A stretch of DNA of 56,719 nucleotides. Source: Parcubacteria group bacterium (lineage in GTDB: Bacteria > Patescibacteriota > Minisyncoccia > Phycocordibacterales > UBA2135). Below, in pieces: positions 3,741-53,019 of this stretch. The notes under the pieces are model-generated. The model was not told where the DNA came from, searched no databases, and saw nothing but the letters and a program-made list of their open reading frames with translations. The position numbers were made by a program, and so were the translations under genes. The stretch spans positions 1 through 56,719 of the forward strand of contig JACOWN010000006.1 of assembly GCA_016176785.1 (NCBI GenBank), in the 5' to 3' direction. Each line of letters starts with the position of its first letter. Position 1 is the first letter of the stretch.

Positions 3741-4091
3741 TTAAAACTCAAGACCGCCGTTCCGCGCCGCGTCTGCGAACGCCTTAACGATCCCCGCGTA
3801 ACGGAAGCCGCCGCGGTCAAAAACGACGCGGGAGATCCCTTGCGAACGCGCGCGTTCGGCAAGCGCCGCACCGGCGCGCTCCGCACGGCTTCGAAGCGCC
3901 TCCGTTTTTGATTTTTCTTTCTGCGCGTCGCGAACGGAAAGAAGGGTCCGCGACGAGTCGTCGTCGATCAACTGGGCAAAAAAATGTTTGTTTGAACGGA
4001 AAACGGCAAGGCGCGGCCGCGCAGCCGTTCCCCTGACGCGAAAGCGCAACCGCGCATGTCTCCGTTTTCTTTCCTCTGTTTTTGATGCCAT
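3741..4091 (-). CDS. rplR: 50S ribosomal protein L18
   Basis: [18 protein letters not shown]...[28 protein letters not shown]. Confidence 0.95.
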
Positions 4092-4648: not shown

Positions 4649-5035
4649 TCACCAGATTTCAAACAATGCTTCGCCGCCGACCCTTTCTTTTCGCGCTTGC
4701 TCTCCGGTTAAAATGCCTTTGGGCGTTGAAAGGATTAAACGGCCGTGTCCTTGCCGCACCGGCTTCAGGTCACGAACGCCGGTGTAGACCCGCCGCGACA
4801 GCTTTGAAATGCGACGCACATTGAGGAGGCGCGGCGTGCCGTTGTCATACGCAATGCCGAGTTCAAGCACCTTTTTTTCTTTTTTCCCTTTGCGGTTCAC
4901 CGAAACAAGGTAACCCTCGTGCATAAGCACGTGCGCGACCGAAGACCGCAGTTTTGAATACGGCACAATGACCGCCGGTCTGCCGATCTTACTCGCATTC
5001 TTTATCTGTATGATCATGTCTGCAATCGGGTCCAT
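4649..5035 (-). CDS. rpsH: 30S ribosomal protein S8
   Basis: MDPIADMIIQIKNASKIGRPAVIVPYSKLR...ALFEIW. Confidence 0.95.
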   Translation of the reverse strand: MDPIADMIIQIKNASKIGRPAVIVPYSKLRSSVAHVLMHEGYLVSVNRKGKKEKKVLELGIAYDNGTPRLLNVRRISKLSRRVYTGVRDLKPVRQGHGRLILSTPKGILTGEQARKERVGGEALFEIW

Positions 5036-19704: not shown

Positions 19705-20295
19705 CTAGAGTTGCGTTTCCGTAAGCGCTTTGTTTATCTCGCGAATTGCGAAAGGTTTTACTTTGTTTATTTGCTGCAATAACCCCCCTTCGGTTATGTT
19801 GCTTCCAAGGAACGGCGTAAAGCGTTCATCATCGCCCCAGTACCCGAGATGCGCCAAAATGCGCATAACAAGAATGACCTCTATGTTAAAGATATATTCG
19901 CGCCCCAAGGGCGCGGTTTTTAAAAAAGAAAATGCTTGTGCTATCTCGTCGTAAAGTTTCTCGTTTTTCTCCTCGCCCGAAAGCAGCCGGCGAAGCAGTT
20001 TGGCGACGCGAGTAGCGACGCGGAGCCGAAGAGCGGCATTTTCGTCCTGCGGCACGAAAGCGGTCAGATGCTCCGCGCTGGTAATGCGCCACCCCTGTTT
20101 CCCGCGGACCAAATGCGTTTCTGCGCGCGAAAAATCCTGCAGCGCGTAACGCAATTTTGATCTGAGCTCCCGCAGCCCTTGCGCGTGCGCATGCACCAAA
20201 CCGAATGCGCGCGTAAAAAGCGCGAGGCCGCGGCTCGCTTCCCCGCGGTCATAGCCGCCCAACACGATCGCTTCGGTGTGATGAATGATGTGCAC
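19705..20295 (-). CDS. recO: DNA repair protein RecO (short form, GTG start)
   Basis: HTEAIVLGGYDRGEASRGLALFTRAFGLVHAHAQGLRELRSKLRYALQDFS... Confidence 0.8.
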   Translation of the reverse strand: MHIIHHTEAIVLGGYDRGEASRGLALFTRAFGLVHAHAQGLRELRSKLRYALQDFSRAETHLVRGKQGWRITSAEHLTAFVPQDENAALRLRVATRVAKLLRRLLSGEEKNEKLYDEIAQAFSFLKTAPLGREYIFNIEVILVMRILAHLGYWGDDERFTPFLGSNITEGGLLQQINKVKPFAIREINKALTETQL

Positions 20296-20307: not shown

Positions 20308-23300
20308 TTACGGTTTGAGGTTTACGGTAAATACGAAGTCGCCGATCGCCACTTCGTCTCCGGCAACCTCGTCTCTGAATTCAATTGCGCTTACCGTGGC
20401 TGTGTCCTTAATCTTGTTTTCAAATTTTTCAATAAAATGCCGCTCGGGAACGCCCGCTTTCACAAAAAGCACCGCGGGTTCGCTCGGAATAAGCCCTTCT
20501 TTTTTGCGCAGGTCTTGTACGGCGCGAATGACGTCCCGAAGCATCCCTTCTTCTTTGAGTTCCGGAGTGATCTCGGTGTCAAGGTCAATCTCTTGCTCGC
20601 CCGCGCCGTCCGAAAACACGATCTCTTTAACGTTCACCTCATCCCGAATAAGCCCGAGCAGGTCTTCGTTCCCCTTGATTTTGGATCTTTGGTTTTTGAT
20701 CCGTAACGTCCCCAACGGCTGGCGCACCTTGATCCCCGCGCGCGCCCGCGCCTCGAGCGCGAGCGATACGATGCGCCTCACTTCTTCCATGTCTTCCAAA
20801 ATCTTTATGTCTCGGTGCGTTCCGAAGATCCGATGGAGGAGCGCCAGGGGGTTGGGCCACAACGGGAAACGCGATTCGTACTTCGGCCACGACTCCAGAT
20901 GAACGCTCTCCATTTCGCCGAGAGCGGCATGATACACCTCGTCCGCGACGAACGGCGCGAACGGAGCAATGACCTTCGCGAGCGTTGTGAGCACAAACCG
21001 CGTCGTTTCGGCGGCGCTCGCCCGGTCAGCGGGGTCGGCCGATTTGAACCGTTCGCGCGAACGCCTGAGGTACCACGTTGAGAGGTCCTCAATGAACGCG
21101 GCGATCGGCCTCGTCGCTTGGTCAAGTTCGTATCGCTCCATGGCGTCAGTCACTTTATTGACGACTTCCGTCAATCGCACGCGGACCCACAGATCAAGGA
21201 TGTTGTTGCTTTTCGGCGCGTCAGCCGCACGGTCGTTCCCGCTCGCGGCCGGCGCGTACAGTTTGTAGAATGCCGCGACATTTTGAAGGCGGGAAATGAT
21301 TTTACTCCGCATCTCGCCGATATTTTTTTCGGAGAAACGCAGATCCTCCGCGCGGACCGCGGGCGACGACAAGAGATACATGCGCAACGCGTCTGCGCCG
21401 TGCGCTTGGATAACGGCAACGGGGTCGGGATAATTCTTCAGGCGTTTTGACATTTTGCGTCCGTCTTCCGCAAGCACCAAACCGTTCACGATGACGTTCC
21501 GATACGGACTCTCCCCGAAGAGCGCGACCGCAAGCACAAGCAAAGAATAAAACCACCCTCGCGTCTGGTCCAAACCTTCGGCGATAAAATCAGCGGGGAA
21601 ACCACGCCCCTTGGGGGGATTAAACACATCGGTGTTTTCAAACGGATAATGATGCTCCCCGTACGGCATTGAACCGGACTCAAACCAGCAGTCAAACACT
21701 TCGGGAACGCGTTTCATTTTGCCGCCGCACGGGCACTTGAATTTCACGTCATCAATATACGGGCGGTGAAAATTGAGTTTGAACGAGTCGTCGTGCGGAA
21801 GGGGCGTAAAATCAATTTTTTTCACCTCGCCGGTTCTCATGAAATGTTCGCGCCCGCCGCGTAAAGACATTGCCTGCTGCCATGAATACCCGCCCGCCCC
21901 CGCGGCAAGCATCCACAAGGGGTCTTCGTGCGAAATAATAAGGATGTTTTTGCCGTTGTATGCTTGGTCCGTTTCAAAGAGGAACTTTGCCATGCGGCGT
22001 CTCACATCATCAAGCGATTCTCCGTCTGCGAGCCGTTTCGTGAATCGCTCCTCCGGCGTCCGGAACTGCGCTTTCCATTCCCGGACGTCCCCGCCCTCAA
22101 ACATGCCGAAGTTGATCTCGCGGATTTCGTCGATTGTTTTTATGCGGTCGCGTTTGACGCCGAGCGCATGCGCGATGATCCGCCCCGTTTCTTCGGCGCG
22201 CGGCAGGGGTGACACGAAAATGAGGTCAATGGATTGCCGTTTCAAGAACTTGACCGCGCGCTCAACGTCTTTGGCGCCTTTTTCGGTCAAACCGTTGCCG
22301 CGGCGCGGGACGGCATTCAAAATATTTTTAACATTGCTCTCCGCTTCGCCGTGCCGCATGACAAAGTAGGCGTTGCCTGAACGGACGCTTTGCGCGCGCA
22401 CATCCTTGAGCGAACCGGCGACTTCAATGTGCCCGCAGTTGCCGCACTTCCAGACGGGAATGGGAGCGCCCCAGAAGCGCGAACGCGAGATCGCCCAGTC
22501 GCGCGCTCCCTCAAGCCATTTTCCGAAACGGCCGTCCCGAATGTCCGCCGGCACCCAGCGAATTTTTTTATTCGCCGCGATGAGTTTGTCTTTAAACGCG
22601 CTGACGGCGACGAACCACGATGTTGCCGCATAGTTTATGAGCGGCGTTTCGCAACGCCAGCAGAACGGGTATGCGTGCGTGATTTTTTCTTTCGCGAACA
22701 GGAGACCGCGGTGCGCAAGATTTTTTATTATCTCAATGTCGGTCGCTTGCGGGTTGTCTTTCGGTTTGACCGCCAATCCTTTAAAATCGGCGACTTCCTT
22801 TTTGAACGCTCCGTCGGTGCCGACATGGTGAACGATCGGGACCGCATGCCGCTCCGCCAACGCAAGGTCGTCCTCGCCGAATGCCGGCGCGATGTGGACA
22901 ACGCCGGTGCCCTCATCAAGAGTTACGAAATCGGCGGCATACACCTTCCATGCGTTGTGTTTATTTTTAAGCGGCGCATTTTTATAATACCCAAACGGCG
23001 GCTCATACGAGCGTCCGACAAGCGCATCGCCCCTGAACTCCTCAACGAGTTCGTATGCTTTGTCCTTAAACACCGCCGCCGCACGCTCTTTTGCAACAAT
23101 CACATACTCATTCGTTCCCGACTCTTGATTTTTTATCTCGAATTTTCCATATATGACCCCGCCGTTGACGGCAACCGCCATATTCCCCGGAAGCGTCCAC
23201 GCCGTCGTCGTCCACGCGAGCAAAGACACCCCCTCCTCGCCGCCAAGCGGCAATTTTACGGTAACCGCAACGTCGGTCGCGTCTTTATACCCCTGACTTA

Positions 23301-23883
23301 CTTCAAAGTTTGAGAGCGTCGTCTCGCACCGCGGGCACAAATGCATTGATTTGAACCCTTCGTAAATGAGTCCTTTGTCGTGAAGCGTTTTAAACACCCA
23401 CCACACCGATTCGGTGTAAGTCCAGTCCATCGTCCGATAATCGCGCTCCATATCAACCCATCTGCCGGTCTGCGGAATAATGCGCCGCCAGTCGTCGGCA
23501 TACCGAAGAACACTTTCTTCTGCGCGCGCATTGAATTTTCCTATGCCGTATTTTTCAATGTCCCGTTTTGCCGCGAGGTTGAGTTCTTTTTCAACCTCAT
23601 TTTCAAGCGGAAGACCGTGGCAATCCCATCCCCAGCGCCGCCGTACATGAAAACCGCGCATCGTCCGATAACGAGGAATGGCGTCTTTGATGATCCCGGC
23701 GAGAATGTGGCCGTAGTGAGGCAAGCCCGTGGCAAAGGGCGGGCCGTCATAAAAGACGAATTCGCCGGCCGGCGACTTTTTTTCAAGAGTTTTTTCAAAA
23801 ATGCGGTTTTTCCGCCACAAAGAGAGGATTTTTTCCTCGCTCCGAGAAGGTTCGTTGTCGTCGGGAGAGGGCATACGTATCAT
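20308..23883 (-). CDS. ileS: Isoleucyl-tRNA synthetase carrying a nested histidine-phosphatase domain
   Basis: 1191 aa with PHYGH, KMSKRL, C183xxC186/C408xxC411 and C480xxC483...C718xC720. Residues ~505-665 read FVMRHGEAESN...SPLPRAEETG...GESLDDV...IISHEDPL. Confidence 0.95.
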   Translation of the reverse strand: MIRMPSPDDNEPSRSEEKILSLWRKNRIFEKTLEKKSPAGEFVFYDGPPFATGLPHYGHILAGIIKDAIPRYRTMRGFHVRRRWGWDCHGLPLENEVEKELNLAAKRDIEKYGIGKFNARAEESVLRYADDWRRIIPQTGRWVDMERDYRTMDWTYTESVWWVFKTLHDKGLIYEGFKSMHLCPRCETTLSNFEVSQGYKDATDVAVTVKLPLGGEEGVSLLAWTTTAWTLPGNMAVAVNGGVIYGKFEIKNQESGTNEYVIVAKERAAAVFKDKAYELVEEFRGDALVGRSYEPPFGYYKNAPLKNKHNAWKVYAADFVTLDEGTGVVHIAPAFGEDDLALAERHAVPIVHHVGTDGAFKKEVADFKGLAVKPKDNPQATDIEIIKNLAHRGLLFAKEKITHAYPFCWRCETPLINYAATSWFVAVSAFKDKLIAANKKIRWVPADIRDGRFGKWLEGARDWAISRSRFWGAPIPVWKCGNCGHIEVAGSLKDVRAQSVRSGNAYFVMRHGEAESNVKNILNAVPRRGNGLTEKGAKDVERAVKFLKRQSIDLIFVSPLPRAEETGRIIAHALGVKRDRIKTIDEIREINFGMFEGGDVREWKAQFRTPEERFTKRLADGESLDDVRRRMAKFLFETDQAYNGKNILIISHEDPLWMLAAGAGGYSWQQAMSLRGGREHFMRTGEVKKIDFTPLPHDDSFKLNFHRPYIDDVKFKCPCGGKMKRVPEVFDCWFESGSMPYGEHHYPFENTDVFNPPKGRGFPADFIAEGLDQTRGWFYSLLVLAVALFGESPYRNVIVNGLVLAEDGRKMSKRLKNYPDPVAVIQAHGADALRMYLLSSPAVRAEDLRFSEKNIGEMRSKIISRLQNVAAFYKLYAPAASGNDRAADAPKSNNILDLWVRVRLTEVVNKVTDAMERYELDQATRPIAAFIEDLSTWYLRRSRERFKSADPADRASAAETTRFVLTTLAKVIAPFAPFVADEVYHAALGEMESVHLESWPKYESRFPLWPNPLALLHRIFGTHRDIKILEDMEEVRRIVSLALEARARAGIKVRQPLGTLRIKNQRSKIKGNEDLLGLIRDEVNVKEIVFSDGAGEQEIDLDTEITPELKEEGMLRDVIRAVQDLRKKEGLIPSEPAVLFVKAGVPERHFIEKFENKIKDTATVSAIEFRDEVAGDEVAIGDFVFTVNLKP

Positions 23884-23909
23884 AGTAACAAGTTTTCCGC
23901 CCGTTATGC

Positions 23910-23929
23910 AAAAGGCCCGCGAGGGGCCT
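23910..23929 (-). terminator. Weak terminator-like hairpin between the small ORF and ileS
   Basis: The minus strand reads AAGGCCCctcgcGGGCCTTTTgc. Confidence 0.4.
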
Positions 23930-23976
23930 TTATTGTACCGAGGGCTTCACACAAAAACGCGCGTGAACCGCCGTCA

Positions 23977-24225
23977 TTACCACTCTCCTGTTCGGAGACC
24001 CAATGCAAACGGGCGGAGGATAAAGCCGGCAAGGTTTTGGTTTTTACAAACGCGCGAGAGCGCTATCTCAAGGTCATGAACGGTGTATATCGTTTCCGGA
24101 CCGCTCGTTCGTTCGTCTTCGTACACCGCATACAGAAACAAAGGATACCCAACCGCATCGGCGCGCGCTCGCGCTTCGGGAACCGAGCGCGCGATCGCAG
24201 CCGCGTCTTTTTTCGCGCGCTCCAT
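23977..24225 (-). CDS. Hypothetical small protein (82 aa)
   Basis: MERAKKDAAAIARSVPEARARADAVGYPLFLYAVYEDERTSGPETIYTVHDLEIAL..., on the same strand between argS and ileS. Confidence 0.5.
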   Translation of the reverse strand: MERAKKDAAAIARSVPEARARADAVGYPLFLYAVYEDERTSGPETIYTVHDLEIALSRVCKNQNLAGFILRPFALGLRTGEW

Positions 24226-24296
24226 GGAGAACCTCCGCGAATGCTTCTTGTATAATTATGGAGCCGCCCCGCATTTTTGTAAACGGAAAAGGTGCG

Positions 24297-25982
24297 CTAC
24301 ATCTTCTCCGGCGCGGCGATGCCTAAGAGATACAGGCCGTTTTTTATGGTTACGGCGACGGCATCCGTGAGCGCAATGCGGTAAGGGGCTTTATCGCCCG
24401 CGTCCACGATGCGTTCCTGCGCATAGAATGAATTAAACGCGCCGGCAAGTTCCGTTACGTATGTCGTGATGTAATGCGGCTCGTATTCCTTCGCCGCCCG
24501 TTCAACAACTTCGGGGAAACGGCACAATAATTTCTCAACGATCCCGACGTCCCGCCGAAAAGAAACATCGGCTTCCATCCCGAGTCCGCGGGCTTTTTCA
24601 AGAACGGACCTCGCGCGCGCGTGCGTGTATTGGAGATACGGCCCCGAGTCGCCCTCAAACGAGAGTGACTTGTCAAAATCAAAAATGATGTCGCGGCCGG
24701 TTCTCTGTTTCAAGATGGAATACTTCACCGCGCCGACGGCAACCGGGTCTTTGAGCTCGTCCGCATTCGCAATGCGCGCCTCTTGAAGCTTCGGCGCAAG
24801 ACGCTCCGCGACCGCATCCAAAACCGACTCCGCGGAGATCACCTCGCCCGTGCGCGACGACATCTTGCCCGAGGGCAAGCGCAGCATGCCGTTCGTTACA
24901 AAGAGCATCTTGGATCCAAGCTCGGGCAACGAAAGCTCCGCCGCCCTTTTCACCACGCGAGCGTATTCTTTGATCTCATTGCCGACGACGGCGATCGAAA
25001 CATCAAACGGGAACTCGCCCGCTTTTTTCTTCAGTAACCCGAGTTCTTTTGCTTCGTATGTCGGAAGCCCGTCAGAATTGATAAAGACGCGCGTGTGAAG
25101 ACCGTGCTCTTCGCCGCGGAATACTATCGCGCCGTCACTCTCCGCAAACACTTCCGGATGCGACTCCACGATCCCCTTTCCGACAGGCCCCGTCTCACTC
25201 TCAAAAAAGTAATGATCAAACTTCGTGCCGAGCCGTTCGTATAACTCCTCAAAAAGTTCGAGCGAACGAGCGCGGCCGCGTTGGTACACTTCGTTCACTC
25301 CGGCATCGCTCCCGTCGTAGATTTTCCTGTTCACTTCTTCAATCGCCGCCTTGTTCGCGTCATTTTCTTCATACGCGCGCGTGCCGGCGGCGTAATCAAC
25401 ACCGAGCGCAAGTCCGTCCAAGTCCTTCTCGGAGGTGATGTCTTTTTCCGCGTTCAAAAAGTGCCATATCGCCTTTGCGACATGGAGCCCCACGTCTCCT
25501 TGGTAGTTCGCGCGTTCCATGCGGGCGCCGGAAAATGCAATGATGCGCGAAAGCGACTCGCCGATGGCGTTCGGCACCAAGTGTCCGATGTGCATTTCTT
25601 TGAAAGGATTGGGGTCGGTATATTCCACCATTATTTTTTTGCCGGCGAGAAGGTCATTTTTCCCGAAATCGTCCCTTTTTTTTAAAACTTCCGCGACTTG
25701 CCCCGCAAAAAACTTTTGCGAGAGGCGGAAATTGATGAACCCCGGCCCCGCCACCTCAATTTTCTCTATATCCTCGTCTTTTTTCTTGTTCAGTTCCGCG
25801 ACGATTTCCTCCGCCAGTTCTTTCGGGTCGCGCCCCGTTCTCTTCCCCCCCGCCATCGCCGCATTCGTTGAGAAATCGCCGAGTGAAAAATCCGCAGGGT
25901 GTTCCAAACGAACATCCCCCGCGTCAACGGCAAGTTGTTCTAACGTTTCTCTGACGAGATTTTTGAGTTTTTCCCGGATCAT
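24297..25982 (-). CDS. argS: Arginyl-tRNA synthetase
   Basis: 561 aa. ...VEYTDPNPFKEMHIGHLVPNAIGESL...LPSGKMSSRTGEVI... Confidence 0.96.
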   Translation of the reverse strand: MIREKLKNLVRETLEQLAVDAGDVRLEHPADFSLGDFSTNAAMAGGKRTGRDPKELAEEIVAELNKKKDEDIEKIEVAGPGFINFRLSQKFFAGQVAEVLKKRDDFGKNDLLAGKKIMVEYTDPNPFKEMHIGHLVPNAIGESLSRIIAFSGARMERANYQGDVGLHVAKAIWHFLNAEKDITSEKDLDGLALGVDYAAGTRAYEENDANKAAIEEVNRKIYDGSDAGVNEVYQRGRARSLELFEELYERLGTKFDHYFFESETGPVGKGIVESHPEVFAESDGAIVFRGEEHGLHTRVFINSDGLPTYEAKELGLLKKKAGEFPFDVSIAVVGNEIKEYARVVKRAAELSLPELGSKMLFVTNGMLRLPSGKMSSRTGEVISAESVLDAVAERLAPKLQEARIANADELKDPVAVGAVKYSILKQRTGRDIIFDFDKSLSFEGDSGPYLQYTHARARSVLEKARGLGMEADVSFRRDVGIVEKLLCRFPEVVERAAKEYEPHYITTYVTELAGAFNSFYAQERIVDAGDKAPYRIALTDAVAVTIKNGLYLLGIAAPEKM

Positions 25983-44430: not shown

Positions 44431-44501
44431 TGCGGGATGGGAGAATCGAACTCCCGACCTCAGTTTGGAAAACTGATGTTATGCCATTTAACTAATCCCG
44501 C
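44431..44501 (-). tRNA. tRNA-Gly (anticodon UCC), CCA not encoded
   Basis: Hand-folded cloverleaf: GCGGGAT/ATCCCGC acceptor, GTTA/TAAC D-stem, TCAGT-TTTCCAA-ACTGA anticodon arm, GGGAG-TTCGATT-CTCCC T-arm, discriminator A. Confidence 0.88.
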
Positions 44502-49595: not shown

Positions 49596-49716
49596 ACGCG
49601 TTCAGTATACCACATGAACATGACACATGATCGTACGCGCAACAAGTGGCTCCGCCCAACGGTTATAGTGTTATACATTAAGGAAAGACGTACCTCATAC
49701 TTGACGGAGAGTGCGT

Positions 49717-52167
49717 ATGACAACACAACCTCTCATTCTCTGGTTTGAAAACGCTTCTCGTGAACACGTCTCTCTTGCCGGCGGCAAGGGCGCGAACTTG
49801 GGCGAGATATACCGGCGCGTGGCATCGCTTAATGTGCGGGCAACGAACGGTTTTATCGTAACGACAGCTGCGTGGCACGCGTTTCTTGACGCCAACGCGG
49901 GACTCCGCGAAAAAATCGTTGCTCACCTCTCGCATATTGACTTTGAAAAGCCCGAAACGCTCCAGACCTACAGCTCATATATCTGGAACGACCTGGCCAA
50001 CGGCGCCGTGCCCCCCGAGGTCGTTCGTGCGATCGAGGAAGCGTATGACGCTTTGGGCGCTTTTTACAACCTCCCGTACGTTGACGTCGCCGTCCGCTCC
50101 TCGGCCGCGCAGGAAGACAGCCATAGCGCGTCCTTTGCCGGCCAGCATAAGACCTATTTGAATATCCGCGGGAAGCATAGCGTCATTGAGCATGTCCACC
50201 AATGTTTCGCGTCGTTCTTTACCGAACGCGCGATCTCGTACCGCCACGAAAAAAATCTCCTCGCATTTCCCGACGATGGCATTGCGGTCTTGGTGCAGAA
50301 GATGGTGCGTTCCGACAAAGCCGCAAGCGGCGTCGCATTCAGCCACGAACCGCTGACGCAAGCGCCGTATCTCGTTTCCATCCAAGGAGCGTGGGGACTC
50401 GGCGAAGCGATCGTCAGCGGCTCAATGACGCCCGACTCGTTCACGGTCATGAAGTCGCCGCAGGCGGGTAAATGTCTCGTTATTCAGGACAAGACCCTCG
50501 GTTCAAAACTGCGCAAGATCGTTTATGATTACCGCGACCGCGGGTCGGTGCGGGAACTGCCGACGTCAGACAACGAACGGTCCTCCTTCTGTCTCTCCGA
50601 CGACGAGGTCAGAGATCTGGCGAGCGCCATTATCGCGATCGAGCGATATTACGGCTACCCCGTTGACGTTGAATGGGCAAAAGACGGCGACGGCGCGGAG
50701 ATCGGCACAGGGAAACTCTTCATCGTGCAAGTGCGTCCGGCGACGTCGCTCCGCGACCCGCTTCGCATTGAATCGGTGCGGGTGGCGCGCGGGCATCAGC
50801 CATCCGTGCTTTTGTCGGCAATGAGCGCAAGCCCGGGCGCAGCGGCCGGAAAAGCGCATTTCATTGAGTCGCCGCATGAACTTCATGTGTTCAAGCGAGG
50901 CGGTGTGCTTCTCGCGCGGAAAACGGACCCTGATTGGCTTCCGGCGATGCGTATTGCGAGCGCCGTAGTAACGGACGAAGGCGGCAAGACGTCGCACGCG
51001 GCGATCGTTGCGCGCGAACTCGGTATCCCGTGCATTGTCGGCGCCGGCAACGCGACGCGCGCGCTTGACGGCCGTGATATCACCGTTGACTGCAATCACG
51101 GGGAAAAAGGACTCGTGTATGACGGCCTGATACCGCTTGAAAAAGACGACATTGACCTTCGTCCAACCATTGAACAGAAAAAGAAACTCATAACGAGAGT
51201 GATGTTCATCTTGGGAGACCCGCTTTCGGCGCAGTTGTTCCACTTTTACCCGAATGACGGCATCGGTCTCGCGCGGCTTGAGTTCATTTTGGAAAACCTC
51301 GTGCAGATCCACCCGCGCATCGCGGTCGGCGAGAAAATTTCCGAGCTTTCAGGCGAGGAACGGCGGCGTCTCGCCGCTCTTGCCGCCGGCTATCCGAACG
51401 TGCGGGAGTATTTCATTGAAAAACTCACCGACGGCATCGCGCATCTCGCCGCGGCGGTTCACCCGTCGCCGGTCATCGTCCGCTTTTCCGACTTCAAGTC
51501 AAACGAATACCGCGGGCTCTTGGGCGGGCGGCTCTTTGAGCCCGAAGAGGAGAACCCAATGCTTGGTTTCCGCGGCGCATCCCGCTACTATGACGCCTCG
51601 TATCGCAACGCGTTCCAACTTGAATGCGAGGCGGTGTGCCGCGCGCGCAATGACCGCGGGTTTGAAAACGTCGTTGTCATGGTCCCGTTCTGCCGGACCG
51701 TGGAAGAGGCGCGGCTTGTATCGCAGGAAATGGAGAGCGGCGGACTCAAGCGCGGCGACAACGGGCTTATTTCCTACATGATGGTTGAGATACCGTCCAA
51801 TGTGCTCCTTCTTGAACGGTTCGCGGAGTATTTTGACGGCTTCTCCATCGGCTCAAACGACCTGACCCAGCTTACGCTCGGCGTTGACCGCGATTCGGGC
51901 GCGCTCGCGCGCGTCGGCGATGAACGGAACGACGCGGTGCGTATGTTGATCAAGTTGGCTATCAAAAAAGCGCGCGCGCTCGGCAAGCCGATCGGTTTGT
52001 GCGGACAGGCGCCGTCTAATTTCCCCGAGTATGCGGATTTTCTCGTTGAGTGCGGCATTACTTCCATTTCCGTCATGCCGGACGCGATCCCGCAAACGAT
52101 AGCGAACGTATTGAAAGCGGAAGAAAGAGTCGGGCGCGCGAAACCAACTCCGCGCGAATGGCGATAA
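49717..52167 (+). CDS. ppsA: Phosphoenolpyruvate synthase / pyruvate, water dikinase
   Basis: ATG at 49717 after a ggaga SD. VSLAGGKGANLGE...GGKTSHAAIVARELGIPCIVG...SIGSNDLTQLTLGVDRDS. Confidence 0.93.
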   Translation: MTTQPLILWFENASREHVSLAGGKGANLGEIYRRVASLNVRATNGFIVTTAAWHAFLDANAGLREKIVAHLSHIDFEKPETLQTYSSYIWNDLANGAVPPEVVRAIEEAYDALGAFYNLPYVDVAVRSSAAQEDSHSASFAGQHKTYLNIRGKHSVIEHVHQCFASFFTERAISYRHEKNLLAFPDDGIAVLVQKMVRSDKAASGVAFSHEPLTQAPYLVSIQGAWGLGEAIVSGSMTPDSFTVMKSPQAGKCLVIQDKTLGSKLRKIVYDYRDRGSVRELPTSDNERSSFCLSDDEVRDLASAIIAIERYYGYPVDVEWAKDGDGAEIGTGKLFIVQVRPATSLRDPLRIESVRVARGHQPSVLLSAMSASPGAAAGKAHFIESPHELHVFKRGGVLLARKTDPDWLPAMRIASAVVTDEGGKTSHAAIVARELGIPCIVGAGNATRALDGRDITVDCNHGEKGLVYDGLIPLEKDDIDLRPTIEQKKKLITRVMFILGDPLSAQLFHFYPNDGIGLARLEFILENLVQIHPRIAVGEKISELSGEERRRLAALAAGYPNVREYFIEKLTDGIAHLAAAVHPSPVIVRFSDFKSNEYRGLLGGRLFEPEEENPMLGFRGASRYYDASYRNAFQLECEAVCRARNDRGFENVVVMVPFCRTVEEARLVSQEMESGGLKRGDNGLISYMMVEIPSNVLLLERFAEYFDGFSIGSNDLTQLTLGVDRDSGALARVGDERNDAVRMLIKLAIKKARALGKPIGLCGQAPSNFPEYADFLVECGITSISVMPDAIPQTIANVLKAEERVGRAKPTPREWR

Positions 52168-52570: not shown

Positions 52571-52641
52571 TGGACCTGGGGGGAATCGAACCCCCGCTTC
52601 GGCAATGCGAATGCCGCGTAATGCCACTTTACTACAGGCCC
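52571..52641 (-). tRNA. tRNA-Ala (anticodon CGC), CCA not encoded
   Basis: Hand-folded: GGGCCTG/CAGGTCC acceptor with the G3:U70 Ala identity pair, CGGCA-TTCGCAT-TGCCG anticodon arm, GGGGG-TTCGATT-CCCCC T-arm. Confidence 0.88.
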
Positions 52642-52838: not shown

Positions 52839-52909
52839 TCGGAGTGCCGGGAATCGAACCCGGTCTACACCCTCCCGAAGGGTGCGTACTACCGGTATAC
52901 TACACTCCG
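52839..52909 (-). tRNA. tRNA-Pro (anticodon CGG), CCA not encoded
   Basis: Hand-folded: CGGAGTG/CACTCCG acceptor, CACCC-TTCGGGA-GGGTG anticodon arm (G37), CCGGG-TTCGATT-CCCGG T-arm, discriminator A. Confidence 0.88.
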
Positions 52910-52945: not shown

Positions 52946-53019
52946 TGGGCACTACAGGGCTCGAACCTGTGACCTTACGCGTGTGAAGCGTACGCTCTAG
53001 CCAGCTGAGCTAAGTGCCC
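52946..53019 (-). tRNA. tRNA-Val (anticodon CAC), CCA not encoded
   Basis: Hand-folded: GGGCACT/AGTGCCC acceptor, GCTC-AGCTGGCTA-GAGC D-arm, TACGC-TTCACAC-GCGTA anticodon arm, ACAGG-TTCGAGC-CCTGT T-arm. Confidence 0.9.

What the first reader, a model, noticed from the sequence alone, without database searches (positions are those of the whole stretch)
21733..22434. Complete histidine-phosphatase (PGAM-like) domain nested inside isoleucyl-tRNA synthetase
The 1191-aa IleRS ORF is collinear with class-I IleRS. It has PHYGH, KMSKRL and the first zinc site C183xxC186/C408xxC411. However, the two halves of the second zinc knuckle (KC480GNC483GH and KC718PC720GG) are about 235 aa apart, rather than the few dozen I recall for Thermus-type IleRS. 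The extra ~190 aa read FVMRHGEAESN..LTEKG..VSPLPRAEETG..GESLDDV..LIISHEDPL. That covers the RHG catalytic His, the conserved Arg, the acidic residue and the second His of the histidine phosphatase superfamily, all in frame and with no stops. An essential aaRS carrying an apparently catalytically competent phosphatase in a surface loop is not something I know to be described. Possible roles (speculative) are hydrolysis of a phosphorylated nucleotide by-product, 3'-phosphate/2',3'-cyclic tRNA end healing, or regulation.
Basis: partly seen in the sequence, partly recalled or inferred. Interest (0 to 1): 0.78.

Follow-up and report, generated by a model that had tools for sequence, protein, structure and literature searches.

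The report
Active phosphatase domain nested inside IleRS
An essential translation enzyme (isoleucyl-tRNA synthetase) of a Patescibacteria (CPR) bacterium carries a complete phosphatase domain, apparently active, inside its catalytic core; related bacteria encode the same phosphatase as a separate gene immediately upstream of ileS, so the two proteins are tightly linked, although the phosphatase's substrate is unknown.

Summary
The ORF at 20308-23883 (-) is a type-2 IleRS (TIGR00392 847 bits). About 200 residues (498-697; window 21793-22392) replace the ~6-residue tip of a zinc-knuckle hairpin. They form a complete branch-1 histidine phosphatase (Pfam His_Phos_1 E=1e-31; AF2 pLDDT 95.5; nearest structures PspA, CobC, PhoE).

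It is not an assembly artefact. The 80 best Patescibacteria genome loci span the same insert, about 70 of them in uninterrupted ORFs of at least 1,100 aa, with R-H-N-R-E-H essentially invariant.

New finding: in other Parcubacteria lineages the closest homologue is a free-standing ~190-aa gene in the order argS-hisphos-ileS-recO, the synteny of the window. IleRS follows within 400 nt in 62 of 71 testable loci. The nested and free-standing forms were never seen together in one locus. Bootstrapped IleRS trees suggest at least 3-4 independent switches to the nested state, all at the same loop. The same subfamily is also fused to ArgRS and TsaC, and occurs at other sites in IleRS and in a ValRS.

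The free-standing form is strongly cationic (+13.5 net charge); nested domains are near neutral.

Best reading: an active phosphomonoesterase partnered with IleRS. The substrate is unknown; I favour a phosphorylated tRNA or nucleotide end, weakly. The main rival is an unrelated phosphatase that hitch-hiked into the gene. I found no literature on this.

The parts
20308..23883 (-). ileS ORF, 1191 aa, type-2 isoleucyl-tRNA synthetase with a nested domain
22393..23883 (-). IleRS N-terminal part (res 1-497): first half of the Rossmann fold with PHYGH (23707-23721), first zinc site, CP1 editing domain (WTTTAWT 224, GEDD 336), CP2 and the strand WGAPIPVW
22435..22446 (-). first half of the second zinc knuckle, C480-G-N-C483
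   Evidence: only ~50-80% conserved among nested homologues
21793..22392 (-). inserted segment (res 498-697) that replaces the ~6-11-aa hairpin tip of ordinary type-2 IleRS
21865..22365 (-). His_Phos_1 (PF00300) envelope, res 507-673
   Evidence: AF2 and Foldseek
22348..22356 (-). R510-H511-G512, the catalytic RHG motif (H511 is the predicted phospho-acceptor)
   Evidence: R and H are 100% conserved in nested, free-standing and multi-copy forms
21928..21930 (-). H652, the second active-site histidine (SHED)
21727..21735 (-). second half of the zinc knuckle, C717-P-C719
20311..21792 (-). IleRS C-terminal part (res 698-1191): HRPYID 706, WFESG 733, DQTRGWF 772, KMSKR 810 (21442-21456), anticodon-binding domain, DUF5915 type-2 C-terminus
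24297..25982 (-). argS (ArgRS), the upstream neighbour; part of the conserved argS-(hisphos)-ileS-recO synteny
23884..24296 (-). argS-ileS spacer. This is the slot that holds the free-standing phosphatase gene in related lineages; here it holds no His_Phos homologue
19705..20295 (-). recO-like gene, the downstream neighbour in the conserved synteny

Best explanation
WHAT IT IS (shown). The window's ileS encodes a functional-looking type-2 IleRS. A complete branch-1 histidine phosphatase of the PhoE/CobC/PspA-like, capped small-phosphatase type is nested at the tip of the zinc-knuckle hairpin. That hairpin lies in the sequence between the conserved WGxPIPxW and DxWFESG stretches; that these are active-site strands of the Rossmann fold is from my memory of class Ia structures, not measured.

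The domain belongs to the same family as a free-standing ~190-aa gene that, in other Parcubacteria lineages, lies directly between argS and ileS. In lineages like this one the gene slot is empty and the domain sits inside ileS. The switch appears to have happened several times, always at this loop. A plausible route is tandem duplication of hisphos plus the 5' part of ileS, followed by two deletions (inferred).

HOW IT WORKS (inferred). IleRS keeps aminoacylating: HIGH, KMSKS and the editing motifs are intact. The nested module would act as a tethered phosphomonoesterase. H511 would attack a terminal phosphate to form a phospho-histidine intermediate. R510, N517, R562 and H652 would bind the phosphate, and E589 would act as the general acid. 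Water would then release Pi.

I think its job is tied to IleRS rather than to general metabolism. My favoured substrate class, with low confidence, is a terminal phosphate or pyrophosphate on the tRNA acceptor end or on a nucleotide at the synthetic site, whose removal makes the tRNA chargeable.

CONFIDENCE BY LAYER. Architecture and evolutionary origin about 0.95. Catalytically active phosphatase about 0.85. Function coupled to IleRS or aminoacylation about 0.6. tRNA or nucleotide-end substrate about 0.25.
For: Domain identity and fold.

Exact insertion point relative to solved IleRS2. The IleRS body is intact.

Conservation. The 80 best genome loci are all Patescibacteria and span the insert; about 70 have uninterrupted ORFs of at least 1,100 aa (up to 1,270). 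R510, H511, N517, R562, E589 and H652 are at least 97% conserved (E589 with only E-to-D exchanges) in 81 nested and 80 free-standing-family sequences. They are kept in 11 of 13 other copies, the two exceptions differing only at N517.

Linkage. The free-standing homologues P0142 and P0143 lie 8-10 bp upstream of an insert-less IleRS. Of the 80 metagenome loci, 78 are free-standing. IleRS starts within 400 nt in 62 of 71 loci with enough flank, and argS is upstream in 55 of 58. The nested loci read argS | ileS+insert | recO, and no extra copy lies in the fetched loci.

Repeated nesting at the same loop. The NJ bootstrap places nested L163 inside a clade of otherwise free-standing forms at 99%, P0222 at 100% and L037 at 86%. 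The main nested clade of 69 has 86% support.

Other tethering. There is an ArgRS-His_Phos fusion, and a TsaC-His_Phos fusion sits immediately downstream of ileS. Intact IleRS genes carry a copy at a second site (P0231, P0117), and one ValRS carries copies.

Charge. The free-standing form has net +13.5 over 188 columns (+9.4 per 100 aa). In the same loci IleRS has +1.1, ArgRS +3.0 and RecO +4.0 per 100 aa. Nested domains have -1.6. This fits a free protein that must find a polyanionic (RNA) partner, a need that tethering would relax.

Precedents. The best NCBIfam resemblance is the phosphatase half of a bifunctional RNase H/acid phosphatase. Yeast branch-1 enzymes remove terminal phosphate from ssDNA and from ATP (PMC2737285). 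Pyrophosphorylation of the tRNA CCA end, which blocks aminoacylation, is a real toxin activity (PMC11559606; 10.1101/2021.04.30.441581).
Against: No substrate was tested or can be inferred from sequence. The domain reaches no NCBIfam subfamily cut-off.

The cap residues that would contact a specific substrate are poorly conserved. As far as I know, no histidine phosphatase is known to act on tRNA.

Gene order in compact CPR genomes is weak evidence of shared function: recO is in the same conserved block.

The ArgRS and TsaC fusions could be by-products of the phosphatase gene lying beside those genes. In L174 the phosphatase stays with ArgRS while ileS is elsewhere, so the tie is not strictly to IleRS.

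If the free enzyme served all tRNAs, nesting it in one synthetase would narrow its reach.

The charge contrast could partly reflect lineage composition and small-protein bias (GC 0.35 against 0.39).

The tools returned no model coordinates, so the distance and orientation of the phosphatase site relative to the synthetic site and the tRNA were not measured.
Confidence: 0.45

Rival explanations
1. Hitch-hiking housekeeping phosphatase. The domain is an ordinary small-molecule phosphatase (broad-specificity PhoE-like, or phosphoserine or sugar-phosphate phosphatase) whose gene happened to lie beside ileS. It was moved into a permissive surface loop by duplication and deletion. Its function has nothing to do with aminoacylation; nesting is neutral or only ensures co-expression.
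For: The nearest structures and profiles are all small-molecule enzymes with a cap. Sources label the free-standing form 'broad specificity phosphatase PhoE'.

The conserved block also contains the unrelated recO.

The fold's first strand (residues 16-21 of the insert model) and last strand (198-201) lie at the two ends of the domain. From my knowledge of the fold these two strands are neighbours in the sheet, which would make it easy to insert; this was not measured. Adjacency gives a simple mechanical route to repeated nesting.
Against: Among the 150 best subfamily representatives, every multidomain partner is a tRNA-related, adenylate-forming enzyme: IleRS many times, and ValRS, ArgRS and TsaC.

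Nesting recurs independently and at more than one site.

The free-standing form's +13.5 net charge is unusual for a metabolic phosphatase and exceeds that of RecO in the same loci.
Confidence: 0.3
2. Product scavenger. The phosphatase hydrolyses a by-product of adenylate formation, either PPi (phosphoanhydride cleavage through phospho-His) or AMP or another nucleotide, right beside the ATP/KMSKS half of the catalytic domain. This would pull amino-acid activation forward.
For: All partners (IleRS, ValRS, ArgRS, TsaC) use ATP and release PPi (established biochemistry; partners).

All insertion sites lie in or just after the second, KMSKS-bearing half of the catalytic domain.

Branch-1 enzymes can cleave the gamma-phosphate of ATP (PMC2737285).

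Only the phosphate-binding residues, not the cap, are conserved.
Against: As far as I know, no branch-1 histidine phosphatase is a dedicated pyrophosphatase.

PPi and AMP diffuse freely, so tethering gives little advantage.

An adenylate kinase-like ORF (judged from its P-loop motif only; no profile search was run) lies in the window for AMP recycling.

A strongly cationic free-standing form is not needed for a small anion.
Confidence: 0.12
3. Built-in protein phosphatase. The domain removes an inhibitory phosphate from IleRS itself, for example from the serine of the KMSKS loop. In other synthetases (GltX, TrpS) that serine is the target of HipA/HipT-type kinase toxins. This rests on my own knowledge and was not checked here.
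For: The superfamily contains protein phosphatases (SixA, PGAM5, Sts; own knowledge). There is a weak SixA profile resemblance. The insertion sites flank the KMSKS region in sequence.
Against: The domain has the ~45-residue cap typical of small-molecule enzymes. From memory, minimal SixA-like protein phosphatases lack this cap.

I know of no case of IleRS phosphorylation. There is no kinase in the conserved neighbourhood and no PADLOC hit.
Confidence: 0.06
4. Non-catalytic module. The domain serves only as a structural spacer or a ligand-sensing (allosteric) module, for example by binding a phosphorylated metabolite to tune IleRS activity.
For: The linkers are predicted to be ordered (pLDDT 87-96 at both junctions, pTM 0.84). 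This is compatible with a rigidly docked regulatory module.
Against: The complete catalytic set, including the nucleophile His and the acid Glu, is essentially invariant across hundreds of millions of years' worth of divergence (30-55% identity). That pattern is expected for catalysis, not for binding alone.
Confidence: 0.05
5. Artefact. The insert results from a chimeric assembly or a mis-called ORF.
For: None found. Public databases do contain 'split' 691-aa IleRS fragments, but these come from scaffold gaps.
Against: The same in-frame architecture occurs in the 80 best independent genome loci and in many metagenome contigs. There is no composition break. The full-length model is confident.
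Confidence: 0.01

Closest known systems
Branch-1 histidine phosphatases of the PhoE / CobC / PspA type (PDB 1h2e, 6nru/6e4b, 4ij5)
   Same: Same fold (Foldseek E about 1e-11 to 1e-12, TM about 0.7) and similar size (~190-210 aa), with a cap. Same catalytic set: RHG, N, R, E, H.
   Different: Only 20-27% identical. It reaches no curated subfamily cut-off. It carries a family-specific N-x-[YF] signature before strand 1 (N504 is 99% conserved). It is nested in, or encoded beside, an aminoacyl-tRNA synthetase. The free-standing form is unusually cationic.
Type-2 (eukaryote-like) bacterial IleRS, e.g. Priestia megaterium IleRS2 (8c8u/8c8v) and Thermus thermophilus IleRS (1ile)
   Same: Collinear over the whole length. 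It has the HIGH and KMSKS motifs, both zinc sites, the CP1 editing domain and the type-2 C-terminal domains. TM is 0.77-0.86 normalised by the target.
   Different: About 200 extra residues sit where those enzymes have a ~6-residue hairpin tip.
IleRS with an N-acetyltransferase domain (NCBIfam NF040702, ileS_w_GNAT)
   Same: It is a precedent for IleRS carrying an extra enzymatic domain inside the polypeptide.
   Different: The extra domain is of a different kind (GNAT). The profile offsets point to a different position, inside or near CP1. The window protein scores 279 bits against a cut-off of 1999 and is not a member.
Bifunctional RNase H / acid phosphatase (NF005567; Rv2228c/SCO2299 type)
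   Same: Its phosphatase half is the best NCBIfam resemblance. It shows the same idea of a CobC-like histidine phosphatase joined to a nucleic-acid enzyme.
   Different: It is an end-to-end fusion, not a nested one, and the partner is RNase H. The score is 74-78 bits against a cut-off of 326, so this is not a member.
Idiosyncratic insertions of class Ia synthetases (CP1 editing domain, CP2/CP3, the LeuRS leucine-specific domain)
   Same: These are domains nested in loops of the Rossmann fold that leave the catalytic core intact (own knowledge of the family).
   Different: Those modules are RNA- or substrate-handling parts of the synthetase itself. None is an autonomous enzyme of another superfamily with a free-standing orthologue next door.

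Membership tests
Histidine phosphatase superfamily, branch 1 (Pfam PF00300) | Profile score above the curated gathering threshold | tested here: met
   110.3 bits in the whole protein and 114.5 bits for the insert alone, against a cut-off of 21.7
Histidine phosphatase superfamily, branch 1 (Pfam PF00300) | RHG motif with the nucleophilic His, plus the second His, two Arg, the phosphate-binding Asn and the acidic proton donor | tested here: met
   R510, H511, N517, R562, E589 and H652 are present and at least 97% conserved in the nested (81) and free-standing-family (80) sequences
Histidine phosphatase superfamily, branch 1 (Pfam PF00300) | Alpha/beta PGAM-like fold | tested here: met
   AF2 pLDDT 95.5 and pTM 0.92. 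295 PDB matches at E<=0.001, and the 50 listed are all PGAM-family phosphatases or mutases
Histidine phosphatase superfamily, branch 1 (Pfam PF00300) | Phosphatase or mutase activity through a phospho-histidine intermediate | not testable with these tools
   Needs an enzyme assay with an H511A control
Named subfamilies: CobC (TIGR03162), PspA (NF045917), archaeal dPGM (NF038349), SixA (TIGR00249), GpmB, RNase H/acid phosphatase (NF005567) | Score at or above NCBIfam's curated cut-off | tested here: not met
   Insert alone: 71.8 vs 162.9; 58.4 vs 350; 76.1 vs 225; 42.9 vs 74.5; 44.8 vs 261; 77.8 vs 326. The motif around the acid is E-I-N-F-G-x-F-E-G (phosphatase type), not the E-R-H-Y-G of dPGMs (direct reading plus own knowledge)
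Isoleucyl-tRNA synthetase (TIGR00392 ileS) | Equivalog profile above its cut-off | tested here: met
   846.6 bits against 621.4, in two stretches that flank the insert
Isoleucyl-tRNA synthetase (TIGR00392 ileS) | Class I signature motifs HIGH and KMSKS, and the CP1 editing motifs | tested here: met
   PHYGH 55, KMSKR 810, WTTTAWT 224, GEDD 336
Isoleucyl-tRNA synthetase (TIGR00392 ileS) | Type-2 overall fold, including the C-terminal anticodon-recognition domains | tested here: met
   Anticodon_1 and DUF5915. Foldseek to 8c8u gives TM 0.86 normalised by the target
Isoleucyl-tRNA synthetase (TIGR00392 ileS) | Ile-tRNA(Ile) formation; being the only ileS of the genome | not testable with these tools
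   Only a 56.7-kb window is available, and no assay can be run
Mupirocin-resistance IleRS MupA/MupB; ileS_w_GNAT | Exception-model cut-offs | tested here: not met
   782.6 and 724.5 against 1900; 279.3 against 1999

The most novel reading that the evidence does not exclude
The phosphatase is a tRNA acceptor-end 'healing' enzyme partnered with class I synthetases. It would strip a 2'/3'-phosphate or pyrophosphate from A76, of the kind left by RNA-cleaving or tRNA-pyrophosphorylating toxins, while the tRNA sits on IleRS, and so restore charging. Repeated capture of the free-standing, RNA-binding (cationic) enzyme into IleRS, ValRS and ArgRS would then be an arms-race adaptation in Patescibacteria. 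It would also be the first RNA-end phosphatase in the histidine phosphatase superfamily.
Probability: 0.15. Interest if true: 0.9.

Novelty: new variant of a known kind. Interest (0 to 1): 0.68.

Why it matters
Aminoacyl-tRNA synthetases are among the best studied enzymes, and their extra domains usually reveal new biology such as editing, signalling or regulation.

Here an autonomous enzyme from a different superfamily, with its catalytic residues intact, is nested in the catalytic core of an essential synthetase. It is present in at least the 80 best genome loci (all Patescibacteria), and probably in many more species of this large and poorly understood bacterial radiation.

The same protein occurs either as the gene next door or as a nested domain. 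The switch between these states recurs, and related copies are fused to ArgRS, ValRS and TsaC. Together this is a textbook 'Rosetta-stone' signal for an unrecognised step linked to tRNA charging.

It gives a directly testable system: recombinant protein, an H511A mutant, a deletion of residues 498-697, and the free-standing orthologue. It is also a clean natural example of how a neighbouring gene becomes an inserted domain.

If the substrate turns out to be a tRNA end or a reaction by-product, that would add a new accessory activity to the aminoacylation machinery.

Tried and rejected
(1) Split IleRS. Many database hits are 640-691-aa proteins that start at the phosphatase. For the two Wolfebacteria entries the upstream ORF is in the same frame and is interrupted only by an N-run scaffold gap. 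L002 is broken into three ORFs, probably by frameshifts; I did not read its DNA. I rejected this as biology.

(2) Mobile element or intein-like insertion. There are no significant direct or inverted repeats at the junctions; the best is a 10-nt inverted pair, which is about chance level. There is no endonuclease or transposase and no GC break.

(3) Defence-system component. There is no PADLOC hit for the insert or for the free-standing protein.

(4) Glycolytic dPGM. The archaeal dPGM profile is far below its cut-off, and the motif around the acid residue is of the phosphatase type (direct reading).

(5) Alternative genetic code, to explain the truncated multi-copy variants. The stops are TAA, not TGA, and there are no other in-frame stops in more than 1000 codons. 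This remains unexplained, so those variants were down-weighted.

(6) Domain tree, to ask whether nested copies are monophyletic. The NJ tree is star-like and uninformative. The IleRS tree with bootstraps was more useful.

(7) Source names for the free-standing clusters by cluster look-up. No names were held. Names came instead from a homologue search.

(8) Literature. Nine searches covered IleRS with histidine phosphatase, CPR aaRS insertions, aaRS domain architectures, Parcubacteria pyrophosphatase and IleRS2 evolution. None described this architecture.

(9) Spatial relation of the phosphatase site to the synthetic site. The tools return no coordinates, so this could not be measured.
Full report
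**Observation**

The window holds a 1191-aa ORF at 20308-23883 on the minus strand.
- Pfam finds tRNA-synt_1 in two stretches, His_Phos_1 at residues 507-673 (E=1.2e-31, 110 bits against a cut-off of 21.7), Anticodon_1 and DUF5915.
- NCBIfam's ileS equivalog scores 846.6 bits against a cut-off of 621.4.
- Against the closest solved structure, Priestia megaterium IleRS2 (8c8v), residues 14-497 align to chain 12-476 and residues 698-1088 to chain 483-847. So about 200 residues (498-697, window 21793-22392) replace a hairpin tip of about six residues.
- GC content shows no break across the insert, and the junctions carry no significant repeats.

**It is a real, folded and conserved domain**

AlphaFold2 models the insert as a compact alpha/beta domain with pLDDT 95.5 and pTM 0.92. 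Its best structural neighbours are capped small-molecule phosphatases and mutases of branch 1: PspA 4ij5/4ij6, CobC 6e4b/6nru, PhoE 1h2e/1ebb, GpgP, and a riboflavin-pathway HFP. E-values are about 1e-11 to 1e-12, TM about 0.7 and identity 18-27%.

The full-length model has pLDDT 89.7 and pTM 0.84. Both junctions are ordered (pLDDT 87-96). The IleRS body superimposes on IleRS2 with TM up to 0.86, normalised by the target.

A scan of one genome per species returned 80 best loci, all Patescibacteria (Parcubacteria/Paceibacteria, Taylor-, Lloyd- and Nomurabacteria). They match the whole 299-residue junction-insert-junction query at 38-56% identity. About 70 of them have an uninterrupted ORF of at least 1,100 aa, up to 1,270. 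In the 81-sequence alignment, R510, H511, G512, N517, G536, S558, R562, T566, E589, G593, E622, R630 and H652 are 98-100% conserved. Mean column identity is 0.55 for the insert, 0.73 and 0.67 for the two IleRS core parts, and 0.49 for the C-terminal domain. Assembly chimera is excluded.

The domain meets every sequence and fold criterion of branch-1 histidine phosphatases. It reaches none of NCBIfam's subfamily cut-offs (CobC, PspA, archaeal dPGM, SixA, GpmB, RNase H/acid phosphatase). Its substrate therefore cannot be read from homology.

**The key context: a free-standing twin next to ileS**

I searched 1.84 billion cluster representatives with the insert. This found full-length IleRS proteins (1148-1216 aa) with the domain at about 480-710. 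It also found free-standing proteins of about 188-205 aa that score equally well (36-41% identity) and match the whole domain end to end.

- Two of these, P0142 and P0143, lie 8-10 bp upstream of an insert-less IleRS of 955-962 aa. ArgRS is upstream and RecO downstream. That is the gene order of the window: argS 24297-25982, ileS, recO 19705-20295, all on the minus strand.
- A metagenome scan with an alignment of the free-standing family gave 80 loci, 78 free-standing and 2 nested. An IleRS ORF starts within 400 nt in 62 of the 71 loci with enough downstream sequence, and argS lies upstream in 55 of 58.
- Conversely, the 80 nested genome loci read argS | ileS-with-insert | recO and show no second phosphatase copy within the fetched region.
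- The corresponding spacer in the window (23884-24296) holds no His_Phos remnant.
- Where sources name an organism for the free-standing form, it is Staskawiczbacteria, Parcubacteria or Patescibacteria. Sources label it 'histidine phosphatase family protein' or 'PhoE'.

The two states were never found together in one locus, and both belong to one well-defined family. The family shares, besides the catalytic residues, an invariant N-x-[YF] signature before strand 1.

**Repeated nesting**

I built a neighbour-joining tree of the IleRS body with the insert removed (118 sequences, 851 columns, 200 bootstraps).
- Nested L163 falls inside a 9-member clade of otherwise adjacent-gene forms (99%).
- P0222 falls inside a 17-member clade of that kind (100%).
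- L037 falls in a 3-member clade (86%).
- The main nested clade of 69 has 86% support.

All of these carry the domain at the same loop, between GS-x-x-[DE]-L and [DN]-[LF]-H-R-P-Y-[IV]-D. The adjacent-gene arrangement is the same in all clades, so it is probably ancestral, with nesting derived at least three or four times. A simple route is tandem duplication of [hisphos + 5' ileS] followed by two deletions; this is inference. NJ without a species tree is not decisive. The tree of the domain itself is star-like.

**Other partners and sites**

- P0234 is ArgRS with a C-terminal copy. In its locus recO follows directly and ileS is absent.
- P0171 and P0194 are TsaC/YrdC with a C-terminal copy. 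The P0194 gene starts at the stop of an insert-less ileS, with a CCA-adding enzyme and TGT nearby.
- P0231 is an intact 1419-aa IleRS with a copy at the usual loop and a second copy between the catalytic core and the anticodon-binding domain. P0117 has only that second site.
- P0228 has copies at three sites.
- P0130 scores best as ValRS, below that model's cut-off (411 against 199 bits for ileS), and carries 1+3 copies.

The last two are weaker evidence. Each ORF ends at an in-frame TAA inside a copy, and the domain continues in the same frame afterwards. P0201 (Y1 transposase, His_Phos and GNAT domains) is truncated, with no IleRS C-terminal half downstream.

Eleven of these 13 other copies keep R-H-N-R-E-H. 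The third P0130 copy and the P0234 copy differ only at the Asn position.

**Charge shift**

Over 188 aligned columns the free-standing proteins carry a net charge of +13.5 (median pI 9.9; +9.4 per 100 aa). Nested domains carry -1.6 (median pI 6.3). In the same free-standing loci IleRS has +1.1, ArgRS +3.0 and RecO +4.0 per 100 aa. So the excess goes beyond the lineage's AT-driven basic bias. Several of the shifted positions flank catalytic loops (515, 565, 585-588, 594-596). The window's own insert is an exception among nested forms, with pI 9.6.

**Mechanism**

Shown:
- The IleRS is complete.
- The phosphatase has a complete catalytic set, conserved in every form.
- There is tight genetic linkage or physical tethering to IleRS, and occasionally to ArgRS, ValRS and TsaC.

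Inferred:
- The domain is an active phosphomonoesterase using H511 as nucleophile and E589 as acid.
- Its role is tied to the synthetase.
- The cationic free form needs to find a polyanionic partner (tRNA, or the synthetase-tRNA complex), and tethering makes that unnecessary.

On this basis I weakly favour a terminal phosphate or pyrophosphate on the tRNA acceptor end, or on a nucleotide at the synthetic site, as the substrate. Three precedents make this chemically and biologically possible:
- Branch-1 enzymes remove terminal phosphate from ssDNA and ATP (PMC2737285).
- This phosphatase type is fused to RNase H.
- Toxins pyrophosphorylate the CCA end and so block aminoacylation (PMC11559606; 10.1101/2021.04.30.441581).

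None of this was tested, and no histidine phosphatase is known to act on tRNA.

Rivals:
- An unrelated housekeeping phosphatase hitch-hiked from the neighbouring slot. Gene order in compact CPR genomes is weak evidence, and recO shares the block.
- A scavenger of PPi or AMP. All partners are ATP-to-PPi enzymes, and only the phosphate pocket is conserved, but there is no precedent and these products diffuse.
- A cis protein phosphatase acting on the KMSKS loop.
- A purely structural or sensor module, which is disfavoured by the invariant catalytic residues.

**Comparison with known systems, and novelty**

The protein is a member of IleRS (type 2), and the insert is a member of the branch-1 histidine phosphatases. 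It is not a member of any curated phosphatase subfamily, nor of the MupA/MupB or GNAT-containing IleRS families.

Nested accessory domains are a known theme in class Ia synthetases, and an IleRS with a GNAT domain has its own NCBIfam model. An autonomous phosphatase inside the catalytic core, with a free-standing orthologue next door and recurrent capture, is not described in any paper I could find. That includes a 2026 survey of IleRS domain evolution (10.64898/2026.02.03.703510). Public databases do hold these sequences, under generic names.

I rate it a new variant of a known kind, with interest 0.68. The architecture and its evolution are solid and surprising to a synthetase specialist. 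The function is open but directly testable.

Noticed in passing
window 23900-24260 (-), the argS-ileS spacer: The spacer holds an ~80-aa ORF (MERAKKDAAAIARS...) with no resemblance to His_Phos. A terminator- or attenuator-like hairpin, AAAGGCCCCTCGCGGGCCTTTTG, lies about 25-45 nt upstream of the ileS start. Rfam found no leader RNA there.
   Followed up: partly
L176 ~4972-4974 and L177 ~4831-4833 (P0228); L089 ~3849-3851 (P0130): IleRS and ValRS variants with three or four phosphatase copies each contain a single in-frame TAA inside the last copy. The domain continues in the same frame after it (e.g. ...SGNVKN*HHLTEKG...). For P0228 this is seen in two independent assemblies. It could be a nonsense mutation in a decaying paralogue, readthrough, or a strain variant. 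It is not a global code change.
   Followed up: partly
L175 4001-7201 (P0201): An IleRS-like ORF carries an in-frame IS200-like Y1 transposase domain inside the editing domain, the phosphatase at the usual loop, and a GNAT acetyltransferase after HFPFEN. It then stops, and no IleRS C-terminal half follows within 525 nt. It is probably a rearranged or decaying gene.
   Followed up: partly
L171 6001-7179 (P0194); also P0171: A TsaC/YrdC (t6A pathway) protein is fused to a C-terminal copy of the same phosphatase. Its gene starts at the stop of an insert-less ileS. A CCA-adding enzyme and tRNA-guanine transglycosylase lie a few genes downstream.
   Followed up: partly
L174 6001-8070 (P0234): ArgRS carries a C-terminal copy of the phosphatase and is followed directly by recO. 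ileS is absent from this locus, so here the phosphatase stays with ArgRS.
   Followed up: partly
L001 340-358 and L003 ~733-734 (public Wolfebacteria assemblies): The 691-aa 'Isoleucine-tRNA ligase' entries that begin at the phosphatase are annotation artefacts caused by runs of N inside ileS. The reading frame is continuous across the gap.
   Followed up: yes
L091-L170 (free-standing phosphatase genes): The free-standing phosphatases are extremely basic (median pI 9.9, about +16 net charge in ~190 aa). That is more basic than RecO, ArgRS or IleRS from the same loci. Nested domains are near neutral.
   Followed up: yes
window 20308-23883; homologues in L004-L083: The cysteines of the second zinc knuckle that flank the insert are only about 50-80% conserved among nested homologues. 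Many relatives have lost this zinc site although they keep the insert.
   Followed up: partly
window 44431-44501, 52571-52641, 52839-52909, 52946-53019 (-): Four tRNA genes, three of them clustered. The rest of the window is a translation-rich region (ribosomal proteins, SecY, an Adk-like ORF, EF-Tu and EF-G by reading). Pfam-confirmed genes are a PpsA/PPDK-like enzyme (49711-52167), ThyX, dCTP deaminase and RNase Y. PGK and TIM are identified by reading only.
   Followed up: partly
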